A DNA stretch of 48,831 nucleotides from Anaerolineae bacterium (GTDB taxonomy: Bacteria > Chloroflexota > Anaerolineae > UBA7937 > B3-Chlor): NCBI GenBank assembly GCA_035530015.1, contig DATKVP010000280.1, forward strand, positions 1 to 48,831, read 5' to 3'. How positions within the stretch are numbered: position 1 is the first letter of the stretch; each line of letters opens with the position of its first letter. A program made the position numbers and the translations under genes. The notes under the pieces are model-generated. The model ran no database searches. It worked only from the letters and a program-made list of their open reading frames with translations, and was not told where the DNA came from. Positions 334 to 47,617 of this stretch are shown piece after piece.

Positions 334-355
334 GAGGTCAACAGATGTTGGCCTC
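334..355. repeat. palindrome family copy 1: GAGGTCAACA-GA-TGTTGGCCTC
   Basis: Read directly. 10-bp inverted arms with one mismatch. Intergenic, abutting the terminator. Confidence 0.9.
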
Positions 356-807: not shown

Positions 808-1104
808 TCACTCTCCTTTCAGTTCCTTCAGCAGTCGTTGAAAGATGTCAGCTCGCGCGTCACCGTTGATGGCTCGATACAGCGCTGACCAGGCTGATAG
901 GTGATGCTCTGCCGTTTCTCGCGCGGCGACGACCCCATCCAGCATACGCAGCCCCTCCTCCGAACAGTGGATCATGTGGCGGCGCACGCAGGCCTCATCT
1001 TCCGCGATGCTGACCAGCAGACGCTGAAGCCGTTTCATCTCTCGCCTGGCGGCGTGGGACAGCTCCCACAGTCCTATCCCCGATGCGGCAAACGTGACGT
1101 CCAT
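808..1104 (-). CDS. hypothetical helical protein
   Basis: 98-aa ORF whose ATG shares one base with the ParB-like stop (TGATG). High GC3. Confidence 0.6.
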   Translation of the reverse strand: MDVTFAASGIGLWELSHAARREMKRLQRLLVSIAEDEACVRRHMIHCSEEGLRMLDGVVAARETAEHHLSAWSALYRAINGDARADIFQRLLKELKGE

Positions 1105-1814
1105 CAGACGCTCTGAGCGCTGATCCAGCGCTCCAGGGCCTCGCAGACCTCGTACACGTACTGCACCCGCTCACGCCACGTGTCGGCCTGCTTCGTGCTC
1201 ACACCCTCGGTGATCTTCGCGACGATGGCCGCAGCGACCTTGTCCGCCCCGCCACCCATCTTCGCCCCCGCGATCTTCCAGGCCACCGGGTCGCTGGTCT
1301 GCGCTTGCACCTTGCCGCCCTTGTCCACCTTGGGCTCGATCTTGGACTTGTGGCCGCTCATCTTGGCCTTCGGACTGACGGTGCCGACCGCATCTCGGTA
1401 GCGCTTGACGGTCATGTCGGACACGCCCAGGCGCTTGGCGATGGCGGCGTTCGACAGCTTGGCGAACGGCTTGAGTTGGATGATGGTGAGGATCGCCTTT
1501 CGCTTGTCCTCCGGCGTGAGGCTCAACCCGTGGCTGGCGTTGTCGGCGAACGTGGCCACCTCAGCGTCGGCCGCACTCTTGCAAGCGACCGTGGTGACCT
1601 CGATGTCCTTCAGCCCCGCCTTGACGGCCGCCGCGAGCCTGTGCGCGCCGCCGATCAACACCTGTGTCTTGGACTTGCCGACCTCGGCGACGGTCAGCGG
1701 AGGAAAGGTGGTCCCGGCCGCCATGAGCGCCGCATACTCCGCGACGGTCGCCGGGTCCGTGGCCTGTGTGCGGAACGTCCGCACGGGAAGCAGCACCAGC
1801 TCTTCGATCTTCAT
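1104..1814 (-). CDS. ParB/Srx-like N-terminal domain protein with central HTH
   Basis: VLIGGAHRLAAAVKAGL resembles the ParB-like nuclease-domain core (dGxHRxxA). NAAIAKRLGVSDMTVKRY is HTH-like. RBS AAGGAGG precedes the ATG. No ParA/Walker ATPase gene is nearby. Confidence 0.7.
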   Translation of the reverse strand: MKIEELVLLPVRTFRTQATDPATVAEYAALMAAGTTFPPLTVAEVGKSKTQVLIGGAHRLAAAVKAGLKDIEVTTVACKSAADAEVATFADNASHGLSLTPEDKRKAILTIIQLKPFAKLSNAAIAKRLGVSDMTVKRYRDAVGTVSPKAKMSGHKSKIEPKVDKGGKVQAQTSDPVAWKIAGAKMGGGADKVAAAIVAKITEGVSTKQADTWRERVQYVYEVCEALERWISAQSV

Positions 1815-2677: not shown

Positions 2678-2715
2678 CCATCACCACGGTCTGACCGTGG
2701 CGATGAGTGGTTGAC
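2673..2715. promoter_or_regulatory. nested imperfect palindrome in the divergent control region
   Basis: Outer arms GTCAACCA (2673-2680) and TGGTTGAC (2708-2715). Inner arms CCACGG (2684-2689) / CCGTGG (2695-2700) around TCTGA. The outer arms share the GTCAAC core of the dispersed palindrome family. Confidence 0.6.
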
Positions 2716-2748
2716 CGGTCTGTTACGCTGGAGGCCGGAGGACACGAC

Positions 2749-3270
2749 ATGGGACAGGCAGACATTGAGGCGTCGAGCAAGGCACGGTCGTTGGAGTGCG
2801 CCAAGCGCGACATGATGATCGATGGTGAGGTGGCCGAGATCGTCCGCACGAAGGTGCTGGCACAGCTCGATGGATTTACCTCTGACGAGAAGGATGACTT
2901 CCTGGCGGCGCTGATTGAGCACGGCAACATCGCCACGGCGTGCCGGCGTGTGGGCATCTCGCGCATGACGGCACACGCTGCACGGAAGCGCGACCCCGAG
3001 TTCGCGTGGCGCTGGGCTGAGATCATGGAGGCGTGGGTGGACGACATCGAGGCCGTGCTGATGCGGCAATGCCTCGATCCCAGCTCCGCCAACACCATCG
3101 CGAGGTTCTTCTACCTGAAGGCCCACCGAGGCAAGTACCGCGACGCGGTGCAGAACGCGGATCGCCCACAGCGGGCCGAGGTTCGCGTCGTCGTGGAGCT
3201 GCTTCCACCACGTGATCGGCCTGAAATGGTAATGGACGCAGAAGTCCTAGGGGAACCGAACCCTGACTAG
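2749..3270 (+). CDS. terS: terminase small subunit (HTH type), probable
   Basis: GGAGGA lies 8 nt before ATG 2749. The motif ACRRVGISRMTAHAARKRDPEFAWRWAEI...FFYLKAHRGKYRD is typical of HTH small terminases. It is the first gene of the rightward structural arm. Confidence 0.6.
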   Translation: MGQADIEASSKARSLECAKRDMMIDGEVAEIVRTKVLAQLDGFTSDEKDDFLAALIEHGNIATACRRVGISRMTAHAARKRDPEFAWRWAEIMEAWVDDIEAVLMRQCLDPSSANTIARFFYLKAHRGKYRDAVQNADRPQRAEVRVVVELLPPRDRPEMVMDAEVLGEPNPD

Positions 3271-3360: not shown

Positions 3361-3382
3361 AAGGTCAACACCTGTTGACCTG
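3361..3382. repeat. palindrome family copy 2: AAGGTCAACA-CC-TGTTGACCTG
   Basis: Perfect 9-bp arms (3362-3381). Intergenic, about 225 bp upstream of the LAGLIDADG gene. Confidence 0.9.
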
Positions 3383-3486: not shown

Positions 3487-3523
3487 GGGGCACCGGGGGA
3501 GGGGGGTGCGTCGTCGCGGGGGG
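3487..3523 (+). other. G-run cluster (potential G-quadruplex)
   Basis: GGGGcaccGGGGGaGGGGGGtgcgtcgtcgcGGGGGG. Additional G6 runs lie at 3327-3332, 3570-3575 and 3588-3593, all on the plus strand. Confidence 0.5.
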
Positions 3524-3558
3524 CGATGATGTAGGCAATTCCGGGTATATAGCCGGGC

Positions 3559-3587
3559 TTGACTTTTGAGGGGGGTAGTCCTACGCT
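3559..3587 (+). promoter_or_regulatory. candidate sigma70-like promoter
   Basis: TTGACT (3559-3564), 17-nt spacer, TACGCT (3582-3587). It would give a short leader carrying TAGGAGG before ATG 3606. Confidence 0.3.
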
Positions 3588-3605
3588 GGGGGGTAGGAGG
3601 ATACT

Positions 3606-4115
3606 ATGAGAGGATTTACTTGGTTCTGCGGGCTGTACGAGGGAGATGGTAGTTGCAATGGCTCACTGCACAATAGGCCTTACATTCAGCTCCAGATACA
3701 AATGACCGACAAGGACGTGCTGGACGAGGTTGTGAGGATCGTGGGTGGCGCTGTTTCCGGCCCATACGAGCGGGGCGACCACCCTCAGCTCACGAGGAAG
3801 GACGGAACACCGTGCCCCCAGAAGGACATGTGGGCGTGGAAAGCCACGGGGTCCAGCGAGGAGAAGTACTGGCTGGTGCGTAGGATGATCCCGTACATGT
3901 GCTCTCGGCGTCGCGGGCAGCTTGAGGCGATGTTGGAGAAATGGCTTGAGCACAAGGGGTGGTGCAAGCTCGAGGACTGGAAGCGCGATGCGGAGCCCCC
4001 GTCAAAAAAGGCCTTGATCATGCACCATCGAGCGCTTGGATGGGGCTATAAGCGGATAGCTCGGGAGCTGGGGATCACAAGGGATCTTGTGCGGTACCAC
4101 GTAAAGACTTCTTGA
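3606..4115 (+). CDS. single-motif LAGLIDADG homing-endonuclease-like protein with C-terminal HTH
   Basis: N-terminal WFCGLYEGDGSC matches the LAGLIDADG motif (xxGLxxGDGS). C-terminal GYKRIARELGITRDLVRYHV is HTH-like. GC3 is lower than in neighbouring genes. Strong RBS TAGGAGG. Confidence 0.7.
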   Translation: MRGFTWFCGLYEGDGSCNGSLHNRPYIQLQIQMTDKDVLDEVVRIVGGAVSGPYERGDHPQLTRKDGTPCPQKDMWAWKATGSSEEKYWLVRRMIPYMCSRRRGQLEAMLEKWLEHKGWCKLEDWKRDAEPPSKKALIMHHRALGWGYKRIARELGITRDLVRYHVKTS

Positions 4116-4162
4116 CATGTGGAGTTGCTTTGATCCACAATCTCTCCGCACGAGGCACGCCG

Positions 4163-4498
4163 ATGTCCGGCAGCCTCACAACGAAAGGACTCAGCATGGG
4201 AATGATTGCGGAGTGTGACCTGTGCAAGACCGCACGGGCCGAGGAAATGGAAATCCTGGAGATCAAGCTGTTCAGCTCCAACGGGCAGCCGCGCGAGGTG
4301 CTTGGGGCGATGATCTGCCCCGAGTGTCTGCATGCCCTCGGCTACGGTGACTTCCTTCATCGGTTCAAGTCGGCGGGCGCGGTGGACGTGGTGGCGCAGC
4401 AGCTCAGGCAGCAGCGCGCGCAGGCCCTCAACGCACCCCTCGACCAGCCGGTGCCCATCGACCCGAAGCTCGCCCACAGGATTCGGAACGCACGATGA
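4163..4498 (+). CDS. small Cys-containing (zinc-ribbon-like) protein
   Basis: ECDLCK...ICPECL. The start is uncertain: ATG 4163 or ATG 4196 (AAAGGA upstream). The track start at 4112 is a TTG. Confidence 0.5.
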   Translation: MSGSLTTKGLSMGMIAECDLCKTARAEEMEILEIKLFSSNGQPREVLGAMICPECLHALGYGDFLHRFKSAGAVDVVAQQLRQQRAQALNAPLDQPVPIDPKLAHRIRNAR

Positions 4499-5094
4499 GG
4501 CTCACAGAGAGACAGCAGCACTGGGCGCGGGCTCACGCCATGAGCGAGTGGGTGCAGCTCGCCCTCATCGGGCAGCGGGTCTTCCCGTACGACGGGGTGT
4601 ACGCTCACATGGACCCAGAGCCGTACGACAGGGGGCCGCATAAGCTGTTCTACGCGCTGGATGACGGGAGCGACGAGAAGCGACTGACGGACCACTATGG
4701 CACCGCGCGCGAGGTGAAGTGTGAGTGGCTCGTGTCCACCGAGGCCCTCGCCCAAATGTCCCCAAACGCCAAGACAGCGGCTGACCGAGACGCGCACGAG
4801 CGGTTCTTTTTTAACGTGGCGCAGGTCCTCGTCGAGGAAATACATGAACGCACTCACATGAACCCTAAGTGGGGTCAGGAGATGGTCACTGCTGGTAGCA
4901 CCGAGCGGTACTACTGGAAGCTCATCTACCACGGGTCGAACGACATGTGGAAGAAAATCAAATCAATGGACATTGACCGTGAAGCCGAGAAGACCACCCT
5001 CAGGGTCAGATTCAGGCTGCACGTGTGGCGCGACGTCACCACCACCTACAGCGAGGACCTGCCCCTCGACGAAAGGACGCACGATGAAAGCTAA
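4495..5094 (+). CDS. hypothetical protein
   Basis: 199-aa ORF with an ATGA overlap with the upstream stop. No motif recognised. Confidence 0.6.
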   Translation: MRLTERQQHWARAHAMSEWVQLALIGQRVFPYDGVYAHMDPEPYDRGPHKLFYALDDGSDEKRLTDHYGTAREVKCEWLVSTEALAQMSPNAKTAADRDAHERFFFNVAQVLVEEIHERTHMNPKWGQEMVTAGSTERYYWKLIYHGSNDMWKKIKSMDIDREAEKTTLRVRFRLHVWRDVTTTYSEDLPLDERTHDES

Positions 5095-5299
5095 ACTTGA
5101 GTTTGAGCTGCCGGAGGAAGCCGGGGCGTTCGAGGACGCGGCCAACGTGTGGAAGTACAAGTCGGTGGTGCGATCGGCGCTGGAGTCGATACGCGGCGAG
5201 CTGAAATACAACGACAACAGCGATGGTGGCGAGGCGGTGCTGACGTGGATGCGCGACATGATCATCCGTGAGCTGGACGAGTGGGGGTTGGACGTCTGA
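5084..5299 (+). CDS. hypothetical small protein
   Basis: MKAKLEFELPEE... AAAGGA lies upstream of ATG 5084. It overlaps the previous stop. Confidence 0.55.
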   Translation: MKAKLEFELPEEAGAFEDAANVWKYKSVVRSALESIRGELKYNDNSDGGEAVLTWMRDMIIRELDEWGLDV

Positions 5300-5550
5300 T
5301 GGCGATTCAAGAACGCACCTGTAAACGATGCAGCCACCACTGGGAGGTCTGGCGGCAGTTCATCAGGGACCTACCGATTCGGCCGGCGTGCCCCGAGTGT
5401 GGGAGCCGCGCCACCAAGGTTGAGATCATCGGGAGCGCTCCGGTACACTTCAAGGGCTACGGGTGGACGCCGAAACCAGGCACGGTCAACGACCTGCGGG
5501 ACATCAGGGGGATGGAAGACCCGAAGCTCGCGGAGGCGATGGATGACTGA
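5299..5550 (+). CDS. zinc-ribbon protein (CxxC...CPxCG, FmdB-like layout)
   Basis: MAIQERTCKRCSHHWE...ACPECGSRATKV. ATGA overlap with the upstream stop. Confidence 0.5.
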   Translation: MAIQERTCKRCSHHWEVWRQFIRDLPIRPACPECGSRATKVEIIGSAPVHFKGYGWTPKPGTVNDLRDIRGMEDPKLAEAMDD

Positions 5551-5761
5551 AGAGCCGTTCCTGCTTATTTCCAACACGGGGCCGGTGCGCTGCGCCAAGT
5601 GTGGGCGTGATATGCCCACCCCTGGTCGCATCGCGATCAAGACCATCGGCGACGCGCGGTACTACTGTGACTGTGTGACGGAGGACGAGATGCAGGGCAT
5701 CGTGGCGGAGTGGAACCAGTACATGGCGTTGGCCCAGATGCCGGACGCGAACCCACAATGA
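5543..5761 (+). CDS. small Cys-containing protein
   Basis: MTEEPF...RCAKCGRDM...YYCDC. GGAGG lies 6 nt upstream. It ends in an ATGA overlap with terL. Confidence 0.5.
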   Translation: MTEEPFLLISNTGPVRCAKCGRDMPTPGRIAIKTIGDARYYCDCVTEDEMQGIVAEWNQYMALAQMPDANPQ

Positions 5762-7131
5762 GCGAGGTACGCCTGAAGGTCGAGGGGACGGTCCCACAGA
5801 CTGAGTTTTGGCTGCGGGACGCTCGCTACAGGGCGTTCGTCGGCGGGGTGGGGTCCGGCAAGACCTACGCTGGGGTGTTGGAGATCCTGCGTCAACCCGA
5901 GGGAACTCGCGGTGCGGTCATCGCTCCGACGTACCGGATGCTGATGGACGCGACGCTCGACACGCTGATGAAGATCTTTGACAGAGCCGGCATCATCGAG
6001 AACTGGAGCAAGAGCGAGATGCGGTTGACTACGGTGCACGGCACCGACATCATCTTCCGGTCCGGCGACGACCCCGAGAAGCTGCGCGGCCCGAACCTGG
6101 GGTGGTTTTTCTTAGACGAGGCGGCCATGATGCCGGAGCTGGTGTGGGACATCATGCTCGGTCGGCTCAGGCTTGACCCAGGCCGCGCCTGGTGCACGAC
6201 CACGCCGAAGGGCATGAACTGGGTGCACCGACTGTTCGTCGGGGAAAAGAGGGAAGACTACGCGCTGACCCAGTGCTCGTCGCACTCGAACATCTTCCTT
6301 CCGAAGTACTTCCTCGACTCCCTGGAGAGCAAGTACAAGGGGGCGTGGAAGGAACAGGAGCTGATGGGTGAGTTCGTGGACTGGGTCAACGCGCCGGCCT
6401 ACGAAGACTTCCACCGGAACCTGCACGTCCGGCCCAACATGATGGAGGAATACCGTGACCGACTTCCGATCAAGCTCGCCGTTGACTTCAACGCCCGATG
6501 TATGGTCTGGCCTGTTATACAGGTCAACGGGAGAACCCCTCGTGTTCTTACGGAGATCGTACAGGTTGGGAGAACATCAATCCCAAAAATGGTCCAGGAG
6601 TTCAGGCTCGCGTTTCCGAATCACTCTGGAGGTGTTCAGATATTCGGTGACGCTTCTGGCCTTGGTCTGGCTGCCCAGACTGGTCAAAACTCCTTCGACG
6701 CGGTACTGGAAGCGTTTAGAGGATACCCGTCGCACATCGACCTCTGCGTCCCCAAAACGAATCCGCTTGTGAGGTCCAGCGTCAACTCGATGAACGCTGT
6801 GCTCCGCGGCACCGGAGAATGGGAGCCGCTGATGATCGACGAGAGCTGCGACATGATCATCCGTGACTTCGCGTTCGTTGAGTGGGACGCGAAGGGCACC
6901 AACCTACTGAAGATCGACGACTTGAACGACGAGCGCAGCACACTGACGCACGCGACCGACGCGCTGCGGTATTGGGCGAGTATTGACTCACCGATTTCAT
7001 CCGTGTATATCTCCAGGGAGGACGACAACTTTGTCGAGCTTCCACGCGAAGACGCTCGTAGGAGAGCATGGATGAAGCGGTTGAAAGGCGAGGAGCCAAA
7101 TCCAGATGGGCTTTTCGGTTTAGAGTTGTAG
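5758..7131 (+). CDS. terL: terminase large subunit
   Basis: Walker A VGGVGSGKTY and Walker B-like GWFFLDEAAMM, followed by a C-terminal nuclease-sized domain. Start taken at MSEVRL (ATG 5758). Confidence 0.85.
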   Translation: MSEVRLKVEGTVPQTEFWLRDARYRAFVGGVGSGKTYAGVLEILRQPEGTRGAVIAPTYRMLMDATLDTLMKIFDRAGIIENWSKSEMRLTTVHGTDIIFRSGDDPEKLRGPNLGWFFLDEAAMMPELVWDIMLGRLRLDPGRAWCTTTPKGMNWVHRLFVGEKREDYALTQCSSHSNIFLPKYFLDSLESKYKGAWKEQELMGEFVDWVNAPAYEDFHRNLHVRPNMMEEYRDRLPIKLAVDFNARCMVWPVIQVNGRTPRVLTEIVQVGRTSIPKMVQEFRLAFPNHSGGVQIFGDASGLGLAAQTGQNSFDAVLEAFRGYPSHIDLCVPKTNPLVRSSVNSMNAVLRGTGEWEPLMIDESCDMIIRDFAFVEWDAKGTNLLKIDDLNDERSTLTHATDALRYWASIDSPISSVYISREDDNFVELPREDARRRAWMKRLKGEEPNPDGLFGLEL

Positions 7132-7140
7132 GAGGACAAG

Positions 7141-7539
7141 ATGAGCGAGACTGGATACCCGGAAAGCAAGGCGGTAAGGAAGACACAGGTGAGGACTCAG
7201 ACCGCCACGATCGCGGACGGCCAGACGGTTGCTGCGAGCGCCCTCGACAAGCAGGCGCATGACTTCTGCGCGCTCGAGGTGGACACCGAGTTCGACGGCA
7301 CAAACCTGCGCTTCGGTGTTGCGAACACGCTGGCCGAGGTCACAGACGGGCTTACGCTGGCTGATGACGGACTTTCGTGGGAGGGGACGCTCGTGGAGAT
7401 TGATTGCTCGACCTACCGCAAGCAGAGTTTTGACCCATCGAAGTTCGCAATGTGGCGCTACATCGTGCCCATTAGCGACACCCCGCAGAGCGGCGCTGCG
7501 TGCGTGGTCACTGGTTATTTCCGCGACTTCCGGTCGTGA
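7141..7539 (+). CDS. hypothetical protein
   Basis: 132-aa ORF with RBS GGAGGA before the ATG. No motif recognised. It lies between terL and the portal gene. Confidence 0.55.
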   Translation: MSETGYPESKAVRKTQVRTQTATIADGQTVAASALDKQAHDFCALEVDTEFDGTNLRFGVANTLAEVTDGLTLADDGLSWEGTLVEIDCSTYRKQSFDPSKFAMWRYIVPISDTPQSGAACVVTGYFRDFRS

Positions 7540-22810: not shown

Positions 22811-23224
22811 ATGTTACCGATCCCGTATCTGAAGGAAGTGCTCATCGGAGCCGTGGTGCTGCTCGTCGTTTTCATTGGCGTTCAGACAGCGCGGTTGTCA
22901 ATCTGCAAGTCCAACCTGCGGGCGTCACAGGCGGAACTCCAGAACGTCGTCAACATGCTGGAGCTGTCGAGGTCAACAGTTGTTGACCTCCGTGCCAAGA
23001 TCGACACACAGAACATCTTCCTGCGTGAGGCGCAGGCGCTTGGTATGTCGGCTCAGGCGGCGCAGGACGCGTCGCTCAGGATCGCTCGGGAGTTGGCGCT
23101 CGCCAAACAGAAGTTGGATTCTCTTTTACAAGAGCACTCAGCTCTGAAGAAGCGGGCCGAGAATCTCAACACCTGCGAGACCTACGAGCTGGTCTTGCAG
23201 AGTATCGCGGGGGTGCTGCCGTGA
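22811..23224 (+). CDS. i-spanin (Rz-like)
   Basis: N-terminal TMD VLIGAVVLLVVFIGV followed by a periplasmic coiled coil. Lysis-cassette position. Confidence 0.7.
   Translation: MLPIPYLKEVLIGAVVLLVVFIGVQTARLSICKSNLRASQAELQNVVNMLELSRSTVVDLRAKIDTQNIFLREAQALGMSAQAAQDASLRIARELALAKQKLDSLLQEHSALKKRAENLNTCETYELVLQSIAGVLP
22969..22990. repeat. palindrome family copy 3: GAGGTCAACA-GT-TGTTGACCTC (perfect 10-bp arms)
   Basis: Read directly. It lies inside the i-spanin gene and is translated as RSTVVDL. Confidence 0.95.
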
Positions 23225-29800: not shown

Positions 29801-32800
29801 AGTGGGCAAAGAGCGTCGGCATCATCGGCATCGCTACTGACATGACGTCCCCCTCGGAGCAGTTGGGGCGCTTCGTTGTCGAGCAGTTTACAAGGGGGAC
29901 GGTGAAGGACGGAGAGTACCAGGTCTACAACCCGCAGGCGCACGAGAAGCGTGTCGCCGAGAAGAAAGCGACCATGAAGAAGGCAATCACACAACAACTC
30001 TCTCGGCATGCGCCGCTTGCGAAGCGATTCGCAGCAGACCTGGAAAGAGGCATCGTCCCTGAGCAGCCTGAGCAGATCCCGCTGTTCTCCACAGAGCGTG
30101 TGGGTTACCCGCCGCTGGCACAGACCCCCGCTGAGCTACGCACGTGGCGCGCCAAGCTCGCGAAGATGGTCTGGCGCGGAGTCAAGGGCAAGATGTGGTA
30201 CGAGCTGTCGGCCGCGGCAATACTCCAGATGTCCGGCGGGAACCTCGAGACGGCACGTAAGTTCACTAGACTGGTTGCCGTCTACTCACCCCAGACCGGC
30301 GTGATGACCAACTGGCACCGCGCACTTACAGCCTGGCAGCGATACATGGCTGGATACTCCAAGAGCGACTTTCTCAAAGAGCGACTCGGTAACGATGACA
30401 ACCACCAGAAGGCCGCGGCCATCCTCTACGACGACGCAGCGTGGGACGGGGAGAAGACCAACAGCTTCTTCAGTAACCTGTTCACCCTGCTCGACTCTGA
30501 GGTACCGGACCGCGCCACCATCGACCTGTGGATGATGCGGGCAATGGGGTTCTCAGGGGACGCTCCAAGCCCCACACAGTACAGGGCCATGGAGAAGGAA
30601 GTGAAGCGCCTGGCCAAGAAGCTCGACGTCGAGACGCACCAGGCTCAGGCCATGATCTGGGTCTACGCCAAGTCGGTGTGGGAAAGCAAGGAAGTGAAGG
30701 AGGCCGCGTACGCTGAAGCGGCGAAGCGGGACATGACCACACACGTGCCCAAGGTCGCCAACGGGAAGATCGTGAAGGACAAGCGCGGCAAGGTCATGAT
30801 GACCTCCACGCCTGAGTTCGAGGCGCTGTACAGGGGGACGTTCAACGCTGCGGTCAAGCGGGACCTCGGAGCCGACGTGACGCTGTACCCGATCTCAGAG
30901 CAGTCCATGACGACGTTCGCGACTGGGTTGGAACGCCGAGTGGCGACGATCTCCATGGAGGCCATCCCCGGCGTGGGGTGGTTCAAGAATCTGTCCAGCG
31001 CAGACATATCAACCAAGGTCTGGTTCACGCTTGGAGTTGAGCAGGCGCTCGTGGACGAGGTCGGCGACATCATCGGTCAGGAGATGGGCATCAGCCCGGT
31101 CGCGGACATCAACATGATGCTGCTTGGCAACTCCGCGTACTACGACGGTGGACGCATTCAGGTCAATCCGAGTAGACAGATCAAGGTCCCGGCGGCCGCC
31201 AAGGGCGGTGCCGAGAGCAGCTACATGTGGGACGCGGCCAGCAAGGACCAGGTCACGCTGTACGCCGTCATCCGAGGGATGCTCACGGGCCAGGAATCGG
31301 TCGCCGGCTACCGCAGGTTCGATCAGAACCCGGTGGTCGAAGAGCGCAACATGGCCGAACTGAGGATTGGAAATCGTCTGAGCTACGACCAACAGACGGA
31401 GCTGGTGGAGAAACTCACGAACGTCGTGAAGAGCCGCAGTGGGAAGCTCCAGGGGTGGGAGGTGGCGCTGTACCCAACTGAAGACGGCGTGGCGTTCATG
31501 AACACCACCGCGGCCAACATGACCAACCTCGAGTTCCATGACGTGGTCAAGGAGACCATCAGTGAGCTGAGTTTCAAGAAGGGTGCTAAAATGAGCACCT
31601 GGGCCGCGGACACGTTCTACGTGGAGGCCGAAAACGACACAGGGGAGGTAGACACCTATGGGCAAATCATCGCAGGGAGAACGGACATACTCAGAAGGGT
31701 GGAGGATCGGGTCGCCGATAAACTCTCGAAGCACTATCTTGCAGCGCAGGACAGGGGACTCGGAGACGCCCCAGAGTGGGCCGTTGCCTACAGAGACACG
31801 GAAACGACTCTTCGACGAGATGCTAAAAGCTACACGCACTACTGGCACTTCTCGGTCGCGGACGTAACCGATGAAGGTATCAAGCGAGATTTTGCGGGAA
31901 CTGGAGCCACTGGCCAAGAGGGACAACGTTTTCGTTTTGATCCGAATACCGGAAAGCTGGATCCAGAGAGTGCTGTTATCCATCTGTACCTGCCTACCGC
32001 ACGCGCTGAGGCGGCGGTTGTATCCAAGGCTTCGTTTATCAACAAGGTTATTGCCGATCTCCGCCTTATTCCCACCGACAGCGCAGGACTAGGTGACCTA
32101 TATCGTAAACACAACGGCGACGCCGTGGCCGTGGCTACTGAGCTACGGTCCATGGGCTACGACGGTATCGTGGACGTGGACCGAGGGATGGTGCAGGTCA
32201 ACCGCGACATCGACGTGTCTGAACTGGGAGAAGGACACGAGCTGACACCGAAGGAGCGACGCGCGTGGAAGGGCGCTCTGAGGCTGGAGGATATGGAGGA
32301 GGGCGAGAGCTATGACCACATCCGAGTCCCCCGTGTCCAGGAACTGAAGCGCGCTGACGTGGAGCATGTTGCCTCTCGGTTGACCGACGACGGTGTGGCG
32401 TACTTCCCCAAGGGCACCAATGAGCGCATGGTCAAGCAGTACTTTGACGAGGTGAGGTCAACGTCTGTTGGCCTCGTGGCCACGAAACCGAGGCGTCCGC
32501 AGTTCTCCACCAGCATCGTAGACCAGCACCAGGTCCCCGTCGGAGACATGAACGTCGTAGACGACGAGGTTGCGTACGGCACGCGGTACGCCACGCAGTC
32601 CGGCCCCGGCTGGAGCCTGCCTGGCATGGACCGATGGGACTGGTTCGTAAAATGGGCACAGGACAGTCTCGTTCAATTCAAACGCTTAAATGATGTGTTC
32701 ACGGACCACGGAATCGAGATCGGTGAGGAGATCAACGTCCGTCTGGCCGAGGAGCTGTACCACGGCAAGGTACAGGAGGCCACGAAGCGCATCGACGAGA

Positions 32801-35572: not shown

Positions 35573-37198
35573 GTGCTAGAACTCAGCGAGATTGGTGGTC
35601 GTATCGCTGTGACCGGAGATACCTATCCGGTCGCTGACCTGCTGAAGGTCATTCCTGGGTACAGGTGGGAAAAGGCGCTCAGGGCCTGGACGTACCCGCT
35701 TACCCCCCACAGTCTCAACCTACTCAAGACTGCGTTTCCAGATGCAAGGTCAACACTTGTTGACCTCGAAACAAAAACCGACCTTCTGAAACAGGCCATG
35801 GAAGCAAAGGCGGCCGACAGGTTCATCCCGTTCGAGACCAGGATGAGGCCGTGGCTGCACCAGATGCGCTCGTTCTACTTCGCCAAGTATCGCCTCATGG
35901 CCCAGGGTGGGGCGATGCTGGCGCTCGATATGGGCACCGGCAAGTCCAAGGTGACGATCGACCTGATCAACGAGTTCGACTGCAAGCGCGTGCTGATCAC
36001 GTGCCCGCCGAACGTGATGGACGTGTGGCCCGAGCAGTTCGAGGAACACAGTCCGGCGCATCATCGCGTCTACGTCTGCAACCGGAAGCACTCGGTGGCG
36101 CGCAGGTGGAAGGAAGCCGAACAGTTCATGGAGGAGCACCACGGATGTGGCATCGTGGTCGTCAACCACGAGGCGGTGTGGATGCCGGGGTTCCGAAATG
36201 AGGCGCTCGCGTGGCCATGGGACATGCTGGTCGTGGACGAGTGTCACCGAGCGAAGCTCGCCAGTGGAAAGCTGAGCCGATACCTGCACCGCCTGTCCAA
36301 GCACATCCCGCTACGCCTGGGCCTCACGGGCACCCCGTGCCCCCACAGCATTGACGACTTCTACGCGCAGGCCAGGTTCATCGACGAGTCGGTGCACGGC
36401 ACCAACCACCAGGTGTACAAGTCCAAGTACATGGTACAGATACCTGGGCACAACGACAGCTACCAGAAGGTCATTGGCTTCAAGAACATGGACGACTGGA
36501 ACGAGAAGTTCCACAGCATGGCCATCCGCGTGGAGGCCGACGACGTGCTGGATCTGCCGGCGTGCGTACACACTACCAGGTACTGCGACCTAAGCCCCGA
36601 GGAAGAGACCGCCTACAACGACATGAAGCACGAGCTGATCGCCGAGGTCAAGGGCGGGGTCATCACCGCGGCGAACGCGCTGGTGAAGCTGCTGCGTCTG
36701 GCACAGATCGTACAGGGCACCGTGACCAACGCGATGGGAGACAGTGTAGAGATCGGAGTGTCCAAGAAGACGGTGCTCATCGATACGTTCCACGAGATCC
36801 CCACCAGCGAACCGGTGATCGTGTTTTGCCGATTCAAGTGCGACCTAAAGAACATCAAACTCGCAGCCGCCCGCGGCGGCCGTGACAGCTACGAGCTGTC
36901 CGGGGCATGCAAGGAGCTGGACGAGTGGAAGGCCAACGGCGGCGTTCTCGCCGTACAGATTCAGTCCGGTGGCGTCGGCATCAGTATGGTGCAGGCCAAG
37001 TACTGCATCTACATGTCGAAAGACTTCTCACTCGGGAACTACGAGCAGTCGTTGGCCCGCATCAAGCGGCCTGGGCAGAATCGTAACGTTACATACATTC
37101 ACATCCTCGCGAGGGGCACGATCGACGAGACGATCAACAAGGCGCTTGCCCAGCGCAAGGACACGATCGAGGCGATCCTCGAAGAAATGGGAAGTTAG
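35573..37198 (+). CDS. SNF2-family helicase / DNA-dependent ATPase
   Basis: Motif I LDMGTGKSK, motif II VVDECHR, motif III LGLTGTP. GTG 35573 is preferred because AAAGGAG lies 7 nt upstream. The track's TTG at 35567 is too close to the SD. Confidence 0.85.
   Translation: MLELSEIGGRIAVTGDTYPVADLLKVIPGYRWEKALRAWTYPLTPHSLNLLKTAFPDARSTLVDLETKTDLLKQAMEAKAADRFIPFETRMRPWLHQMRSFYFAKYRLMAQGGAMLALDMGTGKSKVTIDLINEFDCKRVLITCPPNVMDVWPEQFEEHSPAHHRVYVCNRKHSVARRWKEAEQFMEEHHGCGIVVVNHEAVWMPGFRNEALAWPWDMLVVDECHRAKLASGKLSRYLHRLSKHIPLRLGLTGTPCPHSIDDFYAQARFIDESVHGTNHQVYKSKYMVQIPGHNDSYQKVIGFKNMDDWNEKFHSMAIRVEADDVLDLPACVHTTRYCDLSPEEETAYNDMKHELIAEVKGGVITAANALVKLLRLAQIVQGTVTNAMGDSVEIGVSKKTVLIDTFHEIPTSEPVIVFCRFKCDLKNIKLAAARGGRDSYELSGACKELDEWKANGGVLAVQIQSGGVGISMVQAKYCIYMSKDFSLGNYEQSLARIKRPGQNRNVTYIHILARGTIDETINKALAQRKDTIEAILEEMGS
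35746..35767. repeat. palindrome family copy 5: AAGGTCAACA-CT-TGTTGACCTC
   Basis: Read directly. It lies inside the SNF2 gene and is translated as RSTLVDL. Confidence 0.9.
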
Positions 37199-42978: not shown

Positions 42979-43692
42979 ATGTCCGACGCGATCGCGAAAG
43001 CTGGAACGTTCGCAGCCCTGGCCGTCCCCGAAGGTGACTTCGGGCTCCAGGACATCGTCACCATCAACATGGGCGGTCAGGGGATCGACCCCAACAAACT
43101 TGACCGTGTCAAGGTACCAAGCGGTGGCAACCTGGCGTGGGAGGTCATCGACGAAAACGGAGAGCCAGAGCCCAGGAAAGAGCTGGTCGGCGTCATCGTT
43201 GGTCAGTTCCCGACCAGGGTGTACTACGCAACCGAGTACACCGGAGGCAACGAGTCCCCGGACTGCTCCAGCCAGGACGGCATCAACGGAGTACCACAGG
43301 AGTCCGGCCTCGGGTACGGTGGCAAGTGCTCGTCGTGCCCCAAGTCCCAGTGGGCCAACGGCCAGAAGCCGGAGTGCTCGCAGCGCAAGAAGCTGCTGCT
43401 GCTTGAACCGGACTCTATCCTGCCGCTGGTCATCGACGTGCCACCCACGTCGCTCGACCCCGTGGACAAGTACCTGCTTCGCATCACGAAGAAGAAGGTC
43501 CTGTTCTTCCAGTGTGTGACCAGCCTCAAGCTGTCCAAGGAGAAGAACAAGGGCGGCATTGAATATGCGCGCATCGCCCCTGGGTTCGTCCGGGTCTTGG
43601 ACGCTGACGAGCGGGCCTCGGCGTTCGCCATCTACAAGGGCCTGTCACAGGCGTTCTCGTCGGCGTCTCTGGAAGACGAGCCCCCGTACTAG
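42979..43692 (+). CDS. hypothetical protein with a 4-Cys cluster and acidic C-terminal tail (ssDNA-binding or recombination candidate)
   Basis: The cluster is SPDCSS...GGKCSSCPKSQW...PECSQ. The tail ...SASLEDEPPY* resembles the acidic/aromatic tails of SSBs. Strong RBS TAGGAGG. The functional call is speculative. Confidence 0.3.
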   Translation: MSDAIAKAGTFAALAVPEGDFGLQDIVTINMGGQGIDPNKLDRVKVPSGGNLAWEVIDENGEPEPRKELVGVIVGQFPTRVYYATEYTGGNESPDCSSQDGINGVPQESGLGYGGKCSSCPKSQWANGQKPECSQRKKLLLLEPDSILPLVIDVPPTSLDPVDKYLLRITKKKVLFFQCVTSLKLSKEKNKGGIEYARIAPGFVRVLDADERASAFAIYKGLSQAFSSASLEDEPPY

Positions 43693-43711
43693 GCCAACAG
43701 GTGTTGACCTC
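43690..43711. repeat. palindrome family copy 6: TAGGCCAACA-GG-TGTTGACCTC
   Basis: Read directly. It starts on the TAG stop codon of the previous gene and abuts the terminator. Confidence 0.85.
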
Positions 43712-43738
43712 AGCCCCGCCCACGTGGGCGGGGCTTTT
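43712..43738 (+). terminator. rho-independent terminator
   Basis: AGCCCCGCCCAC / GTGGGCGGGGCT 12-bp self-complementary stem, followed by TTTT. Confidence 0.8.
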
Positions 43739-45913: not shown

Positions 45914-47617
45914 TTGTCTCATTCTCGTTTACGGAAGTCCTTGGGGAACCGACCACCATGTGGAGGCAAAACGTACCACAAGGTTCGCCATATACCCGTA
46001 GGTGCCCCAGTGCGTGAAAACCACTACACCATCGTGGGAGCCCCCGGCTCCGGCAAGACCACCGCACTTGTGGGTAGGATCGCCAAGGCCGTGGGTGAAA
46101 CAATGTACGGCGGCGACATCATGATCTGTTCCCTGACCAGGACAGCGGCACACGAGATCGCTGAACGTGTCAAGCTGAAGGTCCCCGGTGTTGAGTTCCC
46201 GCATGTCGGCACCATCCACGCGCTTGCGCTGCGTGCACTCAAGGTCATCGGTGACAACGTAAACCTTGTGTATGAAGAGGAGCACATTCGTGACTTCAAC
46301 CAGATCTACAAACGAAAACTCCCGCTTAATCTCGGAAACACGCTGTTCGATCCCGAGGGGCGGAACCGGTCGCTCATCCAACTTGCAGACGTCGATCGCA
46401 GACGAGCTTCTGGTCAACCCTCCTCTGAGTGGCCCTTTGTGACCCAGCAGTTTCACCACCAGTGGGAGGCGTGGAAGGGACTCCGAGGGCTGCTGGACTT
46501 CACGGATCTGATCGTGCGGGCCACCGCGGTGTGCCAGCGCCACCCAGCAAACCCGAAGTACATCTTTGTGGACGAGGCCCAGGACCTGAGCCGCCTAGAG
46601 ATGGGCTTGATTCGTCAGTGGGCGGAGGCCACCGAGAAGACCATCGTGGCCGGCGACGACCAACAGGCGCTGTACGAGTGGCGTGGTGCCAGTGTTCAGG
46701 ATTTCATCATGTTCGCTCCGAGTGAACACCAGTACGTTCTGCCACGGAGCTACCGCATGAGCCGAGCGATCTACGACCAGGCCAAGAAGTTCGGTGACAA
46801 GATCTCGATCAAGATCGAGAAGAAGTTTGATCCGGTCGGTGAAGGTGGCGTGGTTCTGAAGCGCCAGGCCATGAACCTAATGTCTGCGATCAACGCCGAC
46901 CTCGACGATGATGAGATCAACAGTGTCATGCTGCTGGCGAGCTGCGGCTACATGCTGAACCCGTACCTCAAGGAGCTGCGGAAGGCCGGTGTCCCGTTCC
47001 ACAACCCGTACCGCTCGCGGGCCGAGGGCAAGACCTGGAACCCACTGGGATCCAAGTACGCCAACGCGTTCAGGTACTTTCTGATGCCGAGCGAAGGTCA
47101 ACAGATGTGGACCTGGCAGCAGCTCTGGCGCGTGGCCAGCCCCATGAACAACAAGTACTTTCGCTTCATAGAGGCCGTGGCTGCCAACAGGCACAGCAAA
47201 AGGATGGTGGAACTGGACTTCTTTGACGAGTTCGATCTTGACGAGCTGTTCGTTGCAGCCTACCGAGGTGACTACAGGGCTTACTTCGACATGCTCGACA
47301 GGAAGCACAGGCTCGGCACCTCCCCTGGGTTCATAACTCCAATGAGCTACATCAAGCGAGTGTTGGACGCGCACGGTCGTCGTGCGCTGGACACCGCACC
47401 CAAGCTCGTCGTTGGCACGATACACAGCGTCAAGGGAGGTGAGTCTGACGCCGTGTACGTGCTTCCGACTCTGTCCCCGGAGGCGCAACGCAACATGAAC
47501 ACGAGGGCAGGACGAGACAGCGTGCTCCGCACGTTCTACGTCGGAGTGTCGCGCGCCAAGCACAAGCTGGTGCTGGTCCAGGACCCCAAGAACGCAAGGA
47601 GGTCAATGTGGCTATAA
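45914..47617 (+). CDS. UvrD/Rep-like superfamily-1 helicase
   Basis: Walker A GAPGSGKTT, motif II FVDEAQDL, VGTIHSVKGGESDAV and YVGVSRAKHKLVLV. The start is uncertain: TTG 45914 or in-frame GTG 46010, just before Walker A. Confidence 0.8.
   Translation: MSHSRLRKSLGNRPPCGGKTYHKVRHIPVGAPVRENHYTIVGAPGSGKTTALVGRIAKAVGETMYGGDIMICSLTRTAAHEIAERVKLKVPGVEFPHVGTIHALALRALKVIGDNVNLVYEEEHIRDFNQIYKRKLPLNLGNTLFDPEGRNRSLIQLADVDRRRASGQPSSEWPFVTQQFHHQWEAWKGLRGLLDFTDLIVRATAVCQRHPANPKYIFVDEAQDLSRLEMGLIRQWAEATEKTIVAGDDQQALYEWRGASVQDFIMFAPSEHQYVLPRSYRMSRAIYDQAKKFGDKISIKIEKKFDPVGEGGVVLKRQAMNLMSAINADLDDDEINSVMLLASCGYMLNPYLKELRKAGVPFHNPYRSRAEGKTWNPLGSKYANAFRYFLMPSEGQQMWTWQQLWRVASPMNNKYFRFIEAVAANRHSKRMVELDFFDEFDLDELFVAAYRGDYRAYFDMLDRKHRLGTSPGFITPMSYIKRVLDAHGRRALDTAPKLVVGTIHSVKGGESDAVYVLPTLSPEAQRNMNTRAGRDSVLRTFYVGVSRAKHKLVLVQDPKNARRSMWL
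47094..47115. repeat. palindrome family copy 7 (most degenerate): AAGGTCAACA-GA-TGTGGACCTG
   Basis: Read directly. It lies inside the helicase gene in a different codon phase (EGQQMWTW). Confidence 0.7.

What the first reader, a model, noticed from the sequence alone, without database searches (positions are those of the whole stretch)
3606..4115. Free-standing single-motif LAGLIDADG protein fused to an HTH, wedged between terS and terL
The N-terminus WFCGLYEGDGSC is a clear LAGLIDADG motif with the acidic residue retained. The protein has one motif and is 169 aa, which is the homodimeric class. Members of that class such as I-CreI recognise about 22-bp pseudo-palindromic targets and tolerate variation in the central bases. 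That is the geometry of the palindrome family found seven times in this genome, and the best intergenic copy lies about 225 bp upstream of this gene. The C-terminus (GYKRIARELGITRDLVRYHV) is HTH-like. A LAGLIDADG-plus-HTH architecture is known from the WhiA regulators, where the nuclease fold has become a DNA-binding scaffold. The gene has lower GC3 than its neighbours, which is consistent with mobility. Free-standing LAGLIDADG genes, outside an intron or intein, are uncommon in phages compared with HNH and GIY-YIG enzymes. Whether this protein is an active homing nuclease, a domesticated regulator of the palindromes, or unrelated to them is open.
Basis: partly seen in the sequence, partly recalled or inferred. 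Interest (0 to 1): 0.6.

Follow-up and report, generated by a model that had tools for sequence, protein, structure and literature searches.

The report
Free-standing LAGLIDADG homing endonuclease gene
This phage gene encodes a small selfish DNA-cutting enzyme (LAGLIDADG type, with an extra DNA-binding tail) that was inserted at a promoter between the packaging genes; it is an ordinary mobile nuclease and is not tied to the palindromes scattered through the genome.

Summary
The ORF at 3606-4115 (+, 169 aa) is real. [quoted passage not shown] I-CreI is its best solved structural match. A C-terminal three-helix HTH follows.

On its own the sequence is weak against Pfam. It belongs to a large, uncharacterised phage and bacterial subfamily (842 representatives, over 2,000 clusters). 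That subfamily's profile hits solved LAGLIDADG enzymes at E about 1e-9. The acidic metal ligand (D14 = I-CreI D20) is kept, and so is every family-invariant residue, including R101 at the I-CreI K98 position.

The gene is a sporadic insertion. Three related phage lineages (terL 75-83% identical) have terS, the intergenic region and the next gene in the same order but lack it. Only a 99.8% identical twin contig carries it. The roughly 550-bp cassette sits at the -35 element of a conserved promoter, and CTTGAC is repeated at both ends.

The 20-bp palindrome family is real (7 copies, 0 expected). Relatives that lack the gene keep it at syntenic positions, so it is independent of this protein. The WhiA analogy fails on domain number, catalytic residues and profile hits. 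The GC3 argument is not significant (z = -0.35).

Verdict: a new member of a known kind, of modest interest.

The parts
3606..4115 (+). Complete ORF of the LAGLIDADG-HTH protein (169 aa plus the TGA stop)
   Evidence: An intact, 99.4% identical copy lies on an independent ENA contig.
3606..3965 (+). LAGLIDADG core domain, residues 1-120. Motif FCGLYEGDG is residues 7-15 and the catalytic acid is D14. Conserved D35/D37 (MTDKD), G47-G48, W76/W78, P96 and R101-R102 are all present.
   Evidence: The AF2 model with an MSA has topology H2-14, E15-20, E26-33, H36-46, E49-54, E75-79, H84-97, H100-118, with pLDDT 88-98 except the loop at residues 51-70 (about 80). Foldseek's top PDB hits are I-CreI (E 4e-5, prob 1.0), I-Vdi141I and I-OnuI. 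The family profile hits I-HjeMI and I-AniI at 1e-9 and I-CvuI at 2e-4. Invariant residues are. hhalign to I-CreI is.
3996..4109 (+). C-terminal helix-turn-helix tail, residues 131-168
   Evidence: Pfam Sigma70_r4_2 E 1.4e-4, HTH_23 7e-4, HTH_28 0.03, all below gathering. phrog_3855 'HTH DNA binding protein' 1.4e-3. Three helices at 134-144, 148-155 and 159-168 in the model, but pLDDT is only 50-62. Other family members carry HTH tails at the same place.
3595..3600 (+). Shine-Dalgarno AGGAGG, 5 nt before the ATG
   Evidence: read directly from the sequence
3558..3563 (+). Left copy of CTTGAC. Its upstream context (GTAGGC, a hairpin, then CTTGAC) is homologous to the single promoter -35 of the gene-less relative L016. 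A weak promoter may drive the gene (TTGACT, 17 nt, TACGCT).
   Evidence: The promoter scan did not score it because the -10 matches only 3 of 6.
4111..4116 (+). Right copy of CTTGAC. The ORF's TGA stop (4113-4115) lies inside this -35 hexamer. Homology with the gene-less relatives resumes here (ACTTCTTGACA in L006).
4112..4141 (+). Conserved sigma-70-like promoter of the downstream operon (TTGACA, 18 nt, CACAAT; 10 of 12). The insertion left it intact.
   Evidence: The alignment with L005 and L006 includes the 5' leader up to the next gene.
3540..3557 (+). Terminator-like hairpin after terS (TCCGGGTATATAGCCGGG followed by CTTGACTTTT), immediately left of the cassette

Best explanation
The ORF is a free-standing homing endonuclease gene of the LAGLIDADG family, of the single-domain class that works as a homodimer, like I-CreI.

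Proposed mechanism:
- Two subunits pack their N-terminal LAGLIDADG helices (residues 2-14) against each other.
- Each subunit supplies one acidic residue (D14) to bind divalent metal at the centre of a roughly 20-bp, near-symmetric target.
- The four-stranded beta-sheet reads one half-site. Q28, Q30 and Q32 occupy the I-CreI S40, T42 and Q44 positions.
- R101 (I-CreI K98 position) and D35 (Q47 position) complete the active-site periphery.
- The C-terminal HTH adds contacts to flanking DNA. This is analogous to the nuclease-plus-HTH layout of phage GIY-YIG and HNH homing enzymes.
- During mixed infection the enzyme would cut related phage genomes that lack the gene, in or near the terS-downstream intergenic and promoter region. 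Repair from the gene-carrying genome would then copy the cassette in.

Shown here: the fold, the motif, retention of all family-invariant residues, an intact ORF in two assemblies, the intergenic free-standing position, absence from the syntenic site in three related lineages, and insertion at a promoter -35 without destroying the promoter.

Inferred, not shown: dimerisation, cleavage activity, the identity of the target and the role of the HTH.

The dispersed 20-bp palindromes are not its sites.
For: Fold and family:
- An AF2 model with a 30-sequence MSA has mean pLDDT 80.8. The core is 88-98 (about 80 in the loop at residues 51-70) and has the LAGLIDADG topology.
- The first 44 Foldseek PDB matches are all LAGLIDADG enzymes or inteins that contain one, with I-CreI first.
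- The top BFVD matches are phage LAGLIDADG proteins.
- phmmer finds 842 relatives. These are a mix of single-motif proteins (median 138 aa) and tandem two-motif proteins (median 280 aa), the classic LAGLIDADG pattern.
- 59 of 95 members hit Pfam LAGLIDADG_3 and 25 hit LAGLIDADG_1.
- The family profile against PDB gives I-HjeMI 1.4e-9, I-AniI 3.8e-9 and I-CvuI 1.7e-4 over the full domain.

Catalytic residues:
- G9, G15, D35, D37, R101 and R102 are invariant. E12, G13 and E14 are at least 90% conserved, and the query has D14 at the last of these.
- hhalign maps D14 to I-CreI D20, D35 to Q47 and P96 to P93, which places R101 at K98.

Mobility:
- terS, the intergenic region and the g4112 homologue are contiguous, without the gene, in L003/4/5/17, L006 and L016.
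- An HMM scan of 54 terL-related loci finds the family only in the window and its twin.
- The junctions map to a duplicated CTTGAC.
- No intron is present.

Family lifestyle: homologues are free-standing ORFs next to DNA polymerase A, in structural modules and inside tRNA arrays of Bixzunavirus and Coruscant phages.

Literature: free-standing HEGs invade intergenic sites (PMC13619312). Phage HEGs cluster near terminase genes and combine a nuclease end with a DNA-binding end (PMC10448857).
Against: - The sequence alone is below Pfam's gathering score for LAGLIDADG_3 (15.8 bits against 22.5, E 0.017), and phmmer against PDB finds nothing. The family assignment rests on the profile and the model.
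- No member of this subfamily has been characterised, so nuclease activity is assumed from conserved residues.
- D35 replaces the Q or K seen at this position in I-CreI and I-DmoI.
- The HTH model has low confidence (pLDDT 50-62).
- The gene's composition is not distinguishable from the rest of the genome, so there is no compositional sign of recent transfer.
- The related gene-less phages are too diverged (terS about 50% aa identity) to define a target or a co-conversion tract.
- No closer empty site was found.
Confidence: 0.8

Rival explanations
1. Domesticated, non-cutting regulator, analogous to WhiA. The LAGLIDADG-HTH protein binds the seven 20-bp palindromes, or the adjacent promoter, and controls transcription or packaging.
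For: The layout of a LAGLIDADG domain plus a C-terminal sigma-70-region-4-like HTH resembles WhiA (PMC3384342). A perfect palindrome lies 225 bp upstream. A homodimer would fit a 20-bp dyad. The ORF abuts a promoter, and I-TevI is a precedent for a homing enzyme that also represses a promoter (PMC3384342).
Against: Relatives with no homologue in the DNA held keep 4-6 copies of the same palindrome, including the syntenic ones (control). The gene is a sporadic insertion. The catalytic acid and the basic residue that WhiA has lost are retained and are conserved across the family. There are no WhiA Pfam hits at E up to 1 and no WhiA structure among the top 50 fold matches.
Confidence: 0.06
2. A decaying or already inactive homing endonuclease gene. 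It is a correct family member but no longer cuts, and persists only because deletion has not yet happened.
For: Homing endonuclease genes commonly degenerate after fixation (PMC13619312). The gene's composition is fully matched to the genome, so it may not be recent. The query has a 13-residue loop insertion (residues 56-68) relative to the family. The twin contig differs by one non-synonymous change, H141Y.
Against: The ORF is full length with a strong SD. Every invariant or near-invariant family position is kept. It is intact in two independent assemblies. There are no frameshifts or stops.
Confidence: 0.12
3. A packaging accessory nuclease that cooperates with terminase, as the HK97 gp74 HNH protein does at the cos site. 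It would have been recruited because it lies in the terS-terL module.
For: The position is between terS and terL. PMC10448857 discusses this dual reading for nucleases upstream of terminases.
Against: It is absent from relatives whose terL is 75-83% identical and whose packaging module is otherwise collinear. I know of no LAGLIDADG protein with this role (own knowledge). It is separated from terL by 4-5 other ORFs.
Confidence: 0.02

Closest known systems
I-CreI / I-CvuI / I-MsoI / I-Vdi141I: homodimeric single-motif LAGLIDADG homing endonucleases
   Same: [quoted passage not shown] These are the best structural matches (I-CreI E 4e-5, rmsd about 3 A over about 122 columns). The acidic metal ligand aligns (D14 = D20), there is a basic residue at the K98 position, and polar residues sit on beta-2 at base-contacting positions.
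   Different: Sequence identity is about 13-15%. Those enzymes are encoded in introns of organellar or archaeal rRNA genes, whereas this one is free-standing in a phage intergenic region. D replaces Q47. A C-terminal HTH replaces the I-CreI C-terminal helices. The target and the activity are unknown.
The uncharacterised phage and bacterial 'LAGLIEGEG...MTDxDV...GPY...W.W...P.LG.RR' subfamily. Examples: Mycobacterium phage LittleE 'HNH endonuclease', Streptomyces phage Faust 'LAGLIDADG endonuclease', Synechococcus phage ACG-2014f, Cyanophage PP, Bixzunavirus gp160-type, Streptomyces phage Coruscant; also phrog_5046.
   Same: This is the protein's own family: 842 representatives at E below 1e-3 and 2,161 clusters at E up to 1e-5. 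Members share the same invariant residues, are free-standing ORFs in phage genomes, and often carry an HTH or a Cys-rich tail after the core.
   Different: The nearest non-twin relative is only 38% identical. Most members have E rather than D at the catalytic position. Many are tandem two-domain forms. None sits at this locus in related phages.
WhiA / DUF199 transcription factors
   Same: LAGLIDADG fold followed by a C-terminal HTH that resembles sigma-70 region 4.
   Different: WhiA has two LAGLIDADG domains in one chain, has lost the acidic and basic catalytic residues, cannot cut DNA, and is a conserved chromosomal gene of Gram-positive bacteria (PMC3384342). Here there is one domain, the catalytic residues are retained, the gene is a sporadic phage insertion, and there are no WhiA profile or fold hits.
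Free-standing phage homing endonucleases of other folds, with a nuclease end and a DNA-binding end (T4 Seg and Mob proteins; I-TevI-like GIY-YIG; I-HmuI-like HNH; T5orf172 enzymes of ICP1)
   Same: The same lifestyle: small intergenic cassettes next to essential genes such as terminase, sporadic among close relatives, with a nuclease domain plus an HTH-type DNA-binding module (PMC10448857, PMC3943268).
   Different: The catalytic fold is different. In LAGLIDADG enzymes the nuclease domain is itself the main DNA reader, so the extra HTH is an addition and not the sole targeting module.

Membership tests
LAGLIDADG homing endonucleases (single-motif, homodimeric class) | LAGLIDADG motif ending in an acidic metal-binding residue | tested here: met
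   FCGLYEGDG is residues 7-15. D14 aligns with I-CreI D20. The position is E in at least 90% of 95 relatives.
LAGLIDADG homing endonucleases (single-motif, homodimeric class) | [quoted passage not shown] | tested here: met
   The AF2 model has core pLDDT 88-98, about 80 in one loop. The first 44 Foldseek PDB hits are all LAGLIDADG enzymes or inteins that contain one, with I-CreI first.
LAGLIDADG homing endonucleases (single-motif, homodimeric class) | Significant match to curated family profiles | tested here: inconclusive
   The query alone gives LAGLIDADG_3 at E 0.017 and 15.8 bits, below the 22.5-bit cut-off. At family level it is met: 59 of 95 relatives hit LAGLIDADG_3 (best 9e-8) and 25 hit LAGLIDADG_1, and the profile against PDB gives 1.4e-9.
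LAGLIDADG homing endonucleases (single-motif, homodimeric class) | Conserved basic residue and polar residue at the active-site periphery (I-CreI K98 and Q47) | tested here: met
   R101 is invariant and lies one residue past the end of the hhalign block (P96 = P93, S100 = L97), so R101 = K98 by register. D35 is invariant and aligns with Q47, so it is acidic rather than amide.
LAGLIDADG homing endonucleases (single-motif, homodimeric class) | Homodimer acting on a near-palindromic target of about 20-22 bp; double-strand cleavage with 4-nt 3' overhangs | not testable with these tools
   No multimer prediction or biochemistry was available. Dimerisation is inferred from the single motif and from the existence of tandem two-motif relatives.
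LAGLIDADG homing endonucleases (single-motif, homodimeric class) | Mobility: present or absent at one site among otherwise collinear relatives | tested here: met
   Absent between terS and the g4112 homologue in three lineages (L003/4/5/17, L006, L016). Present only in the 99.8% identical twin L002.
WhiA / DUF199 | Two LAGLIDADG-like domains in one chain plus a C-terminal HTH | tested here: not met
   There is one domain (residues 1-120) plus an HTH.
WhiA / DUF199 | [quoted passage not shown] | tested here: not met
   D14 and R101 are retained and conserved across the family.
WhiA / DUF199 | Match to the WhiA profiles or structure | tested here: not met
   No WhiA family appears among Pfam hits at E up to 1. 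No WhiA chain appears in the top 50 Foldseek PDB matches.
HNH endonucleases (the label of phrog_5046 and of GenBank homologues) | beta-beta-alpha-metal HNH motif | tested here: not met
   No HNH Pfam family hit. The phrog_5046 match covers residues 4-129, which is the LAGLIDADG core. The fold is LAGLIDADG. The label is a misannotation.
Terminase-associated packaging nucleases (HK97 gp74 type) | Conserved together with the terminase across related phages | tested here: not met
   Relatives with terL 75-83% identical lack it.

The most novel reading that the evidence does not exclude
The C-terminal HTH makes this a bipartite-recognition LAGLIDADG enzyme. Under this reading the HTH also acts at the promoter the cassette has split: the cassette is bracketed by two copies of the -35 element and its stop codon lies inside the downstream one. 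The protein would then double as a repressor or modulator of the downstream structural operon or of its own expression, as I-TevI does, and this subfamily would be a modular 'nuclease plus tail' branch of LAGLIDADG enzymes with targets well over 22 bp.
Probability: 0.1. Interest if true: 0.5.

Novelty: new member of a known kind. Interest (0 to 1): 0.3.

Why it matters
This case shows a selfish nuclease cassette inserted exactly at a promoter -35 while leaving a working promoter for the downstream packaging and structural genes.

More broadly, it flags a large phage and bacterial LAGLIDADG subfamily (over 2,000 clusters). No member has been characterised, many are mislabelled 'HNH endonuclease' or 'hypothetical', and the C-terminal DNA-binding tails vary between HTH and Cys-rich types. 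Reviews still describe LAGLIDADG enzymes as organellar and archaeal.

Such enzymes could be new meganuclease scaffolds. For this genome, the practical result is negative: the dispersed palindromes need another explanation.

Tried and rejected
- Single-sequence AF2 gave an unusable model (pLDDT 41.8).
- phmmer of the protein against PDB gave only chance hits to reovirus sigma-2.
- The word-indexed homologue search found only the twin. The exhaustive phmmer search was needed.
- A 93-row alignment that included tandem two-domain relatives (A3) was built. I did not use it for folding because second-domain residues aligned onto the HTH.
- Palindromes as cleavage or binding sites: rejected, because gene-less relatives keep them.
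- GC3 as evidence of foreign origin: rejected (z = -0.35).
- Intron or intein context: no group I or II intron by Rfam at E up to 1, and the ORF interrupts no gene.
- A metagenome scan with terS for a closer empty site found nothing. The terL-profile scan gave 50 loci, but none closer than 79% terL identity.
- I looked for a near-palindromic candidate target at the empty site. L006 has CACACTT-CTTGAC-AAGTGTG around the -35, but L005 and L016 do not share it, so I treat it as a weak lead only.
I could therefore not test at read level for gene-less variants in the source sample.

Full report
**1. The observation**

The window is one whole contig (C280, 48,831 bp) of a 2.3-Mb, 425-contig metagenome bin. 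It is a tailed-phage genome. It encodes terS (2707-3270, phrog_4044), terL (5710-7131, phrog_2 and Pfam Terminase_6N), an SU10-type portal and major capsid protein, and a 2,844-aa virion protein.

The ORF at 3606-4115 (+) is exactly as described:
- 169 aa, with an ATG start preceded by AGGAGG at 3595-3600.
- WFCGLYEGDGSC at residues 6-17.
- GYKRIARELGITRDLVRYHV at residues 147-166.

It lies between terS and terL, but 4-5 further small ORFs (4112-5761) separate it from terL.

The palindrome AGGTCAACANNTGTTGACCT occurs seven times, at 335, 3362, 22970, 32455, 35747, 43691 and 47095, against none in 100 shuffles. Three copies are intergenic and four lie inside ORFs. The copy at 3362-3381 ends 225 bp before the ATG.

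The GC3 statement is numerically true against the two immediate neighbours (0.724 against 0.777 and 0.783). It is meaningless genome-wide, because 19 of 51 predicted genes are as low or lower (z = -0.35).

**2. What the protein is**

Taken alone, the sequence is weak:
- Pfam LAGLIDADG_3 at E 0.017, below the gathering score.
- Sigma70_r4_2 at 1.4e-4 and HTH_23 at 7e-4 for residues 131-166.
- phrog_5046, labelled 'HNH endonuclease', at 3e-12 over residues 4-129.
- Nothing by phmmer against PDB.
- Only a 99% twin by the word-indexed search.

The exhaustive phmmer search of 1.8 billion representatives found 842 relatives at E below 1e-3. They are a mixture of single-motif proteins (median 138 aa) and tandem two-motif proteins (median 280 aa). 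This is the classic LAGLIDADG pattern of homodimeric and fused monomeric forms.

In a 95-sequence alignment, G9, G15, D35, D37, R101 and R102 are invariant. W6, E12, G13, E14, G47, G48, W78 and P96 are at least 90% conserved. The query keeps all of them, with D rather than E at position 14.

Family-level evidence for the fold:
- 59 of the 95 relatives hit Pfam LAGLIDADG_3 and 25 hit LAGLIDADG_1.
- The alignment's profile hits solved LAGLIDADG enzymes: I-HjeMI 1.4e-9, I-AniI 3.8e-9, the bI3 maturase 3.8e-8, and I-CvuI 1.7e-4 over the whole domain.
- A profile search of the 5.8-billion-protein collection gave 2,161 clusters at E up to 1e-5.

Single-sequence AF2 failed (pLDDT 41.8). With a 30-sequence alignment of eligible relatives, the model reached mean pLDDT 80.8, with 88-98 over residues 1-118 apart from one loop at residues 51-70 (about 80). 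The order of elements is helix 2-14, strands 15-20 and 26-33, helix 36-46, strands 49-54 and 75-79, and helices 84-97 and 100-118. Three short helices follow at 134-168 with low confidence (pLDDT 50-62).

Foldseek against PDB returned LAGLIDADG homing endonucleases, or inteins containing one, in its first 44 matches. I-CreI is first (E 3.6e-5 to 1e-4, probability 1.0, rmsd about 3 A over about 122 columns). I-Vdi141I and I-OnuI variants follow. No WhiA chain is in the top 50.

Against predicted viral structures, the best matches are phage proteins annotated as LAGLIDADG, 'DNA endonuclease' or 'HNH endonuclease'. They come from Mycobacterium phage LittleE, Cyanophage PP, Sphingobium phage Lacusarx, Synechococcus phage ACG-2014f and Streptomyces phage Faust.

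I ran a profile-sequence alignment to I-CreI, with the I-CreI sequence typed from my memory of UniProt P05725. It maps:
- WFCGLYEGDGS onto YLAGFVDGDGS, so D14 = D20.
- IQMTD onto FQVTQ, so D35 = Q47 and Q32 = Q44.
- MIPYMCS onto LQPFLKL, so P96 = P93. By register, the invariant R101 falls on K98.

[quoted passage not shown] This protein meets both.

**3. The gene is a sporadic insertion**

A tblastn and HMM survey covered five IMG/VR or ENA loci and 50 metagenome loci related through terL. The gene is present only in a twin contig (L002). That contig is 99.84% identical over 14.1 kb, with 23 SNPs, one of them in the gene (H141Y).

Three other lineages lack it: L003/4/5/17 (terL 79%), L006 (83%) and L016 (75%). 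They are otherwise collinear. All three have terS, an intergenic region of about 360-430 bp, and the homologue of ORF 4112-4498 in the same order, and where the DNA reaches upstream of terS (L003/5/17, L006) the ParB-like gene is there as well. In L006 one extra small ORF sits between the intergenic region and the 4112-4498 homologue.

Their intergenic region has the same landmarks as the window: the palindrome, a G-rich block (GGGGGAGGGGGG), GTAGGC, a short hairpin, and a TTGACA promoter followed by a conserved leader.

In the window, the upstream landmarks end at CTTGAC (3558-3563). The promoter and leader resume at CTTGAC (4111-4116; TTGACA, 18 nt, CACAAT). The roughly 550 bp in between are just the SD and the ORF, whose TGA stop lies inside the downstream -35 hexamer.

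The cassette therefore sits at the promoter's -35, bracketed by a 6-bp direct repeat, and the downstream operon keeps an intact promoter. Rfam finds no intron, and the ORF interrupts no gene.

This is the expected picture for a free-standing HEG, which is limited to intergenic targets (PMC13619312). Such genes typically sit near terminase or other essential genes in phages (PMC10448857).

Homologues elsewhere have the same lifestyle:
- An HTH-bearing relative lies immediately upstream of a DNA polymerase A gene.
- Another lies in a structural module.
- The GenBank homologues in Bixzunavirus mycobacteriophages and in Streptomyces phage Coruscant sit alone inside tRNA arrays.

**4. The palindromes are not its sites**

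The IMG/VR records behind L005, L006 and L003 (37.8, 45.2 and 17.5 kb) carry 6, 6 and 4 copies of GGTCAACANNTGTTGACC with up to 2 mismatches. The reversed control pattern gives 0. The copies include those syntenic with the window's 335 and 3362 copies.

The family profile finds no LAGLIDADG homologue anywhere in those records. The same profile finds the window's gene at E 1.6e-37.

The palindromes therefore predate the insertion and function without it. Seven cleavable sites in the enzyme's own genome would in any case be incompatible with an active nuclease.

There is one caveat. The records are 19-84% complete, so a homologue in the unsampled parts cannot be strictly excluded.

A better candidate binder is the ParB-like HTH protein (1104-1814, minus strand). 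Its hits are weak: ParB_N, NCBIfam 'plasmid partitioning protein' at 2.8e-5, and HTH_23 at 1.4e-4. It is conserved at about 54% identity in all relatives that reach that far. This is a lead only.

**5. Mechanism and rivals**

Best reading (0.8): an I-CreI-like homodimeric homing endonuclease with an accessory HTH. It would cut gene-less relatives near the terS-downstream promoter region in mixed infections and be copied in by recombinational repair.
- Shown: fold, motif, conserved active-site residues, intact ORF, presence/absence polymorphism and the insertion anatomy.
- Inferred: dimerisation, cutting, the target and the role of the HTH.

Rivals:
- An inactive remnant (0.12). This cannot be excluded without an assay, but nothing in the sequence is degraded.
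- A WhiA-like regulator of the palindromes or the promoter (0.06). Section 4 and the retained catalytic residues contradict it.
- An HK97-gp74-like packaging cofactor (0.02). Its absence from relatives with near-identical terminases contradicts it.

**6. Novelty**

Free-standing LAGLIDADG genes in phages are already annotated in public records, and tblastn finds relatives in 66 GenBank phage records. This is therefore a new member of a known kind.

What is under-appreciated is the size of this particular subfamily and its complete lack of characterised members. The nearest solved structures are reached only by profile or fold comparison. The subfamily also has modular tails:
- About 45% of single-motif members extend at least 30 aa past the core.
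- 21 of 98 single-motif members have a CxxC in the tail.
- A minority of the 95 aligned members carry HTH tails; each HTH family is hit by at most 7 of them.

Reviews still place LAGLIDADG enzymes in organelles and archaea (PMC3943268, PMC13619312).

The earlier scan note on the seven palindromes (e1-3694004) gives the same coordinates as I found. It did not change my reading.

Noticed in passing
window 335-354, 3362-3381, 22970-22989, 32455-32474, 35747-35766, 43691-43710, 47095-47114; also the IMG/VR records behind L003, L005 and L006: The 20-bp palindrome AGGTCAACANNTGTTGACCT is a lineage-wide element. Related phages carry 4-6 copies each, partly at syntenic positions, and L016 has a variant (ATGCCAACAGATGTTGGCAT). 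Two intergenic copies sit next to terminator hairpins (303-328 and 43712-43735). Three of the four intragenic copies are in the same reading frame (R-S-T-x-V-D/G-L). The ParB-like HTH protein (1104-1814, minus strand), conserved at about 54% in the relatives, is a candidate binder, by analogy with parS or centromere-type sites.
   Followed up: partly
window 3495-3535; L005 about 3190-3240; L006 about 3790-3840; L016 about 590-640: A G-rich block (GGGGGAGGGGGG[T/C]GCGT ... GTAGGC) between the palindrome and the promoter is almost invariant, even though terS is only about 50% identical among these phages. It has four or more G-runs, so it could form a G-quadruplex. It might be a packaging (pac) or regulatory element.
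   Followed up: no
window 7222-7323 (ORF 7141-7539) compared with L002: 17 of the 23 SNPs between the window and its 99.84% identical twin contig cluster in about 100 bp of one small gene just after terL. This looks like a short recombination patch.
   Followed up: no
phrog_5046; GenBank MT711976.1 79665-80114 (Coruscant) and MN428066.1 91704-92141 (JPickles gp160): Homologues of this LAGLIDADG protein are labelled 'HNH endonuclease' or 'hypothetical protein'. Both GenBank examples sit alone inside phage tRNA gene arrays, a classic site for free-standing homing endonuclease genes.
   Followed up: partly
family alignment A2 (e.g. P0250, P0256, P0263, P0259, P0224): Many single-domain relatives replace the HTH with a Cys-rich tail (C-P-x-G-H ... 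R-x-C-x2-C). It is probably a zinc-binding DNA-binding module, and it may be the origin of the 'HNH' label.
   Followed up: no
L006 3900-3925 (gene-less relative): The promoter -35 in L006 lies at the centre of a 20-bp near-palindrome, CACACTT-CTTGAC-AAGTGTG. This is at the point where the window's cassette is inserted. L005 and L016 do not share it, so it may be an operator or a chance match. It is a weak lead for the enzyme's target.
   Followed up: partly
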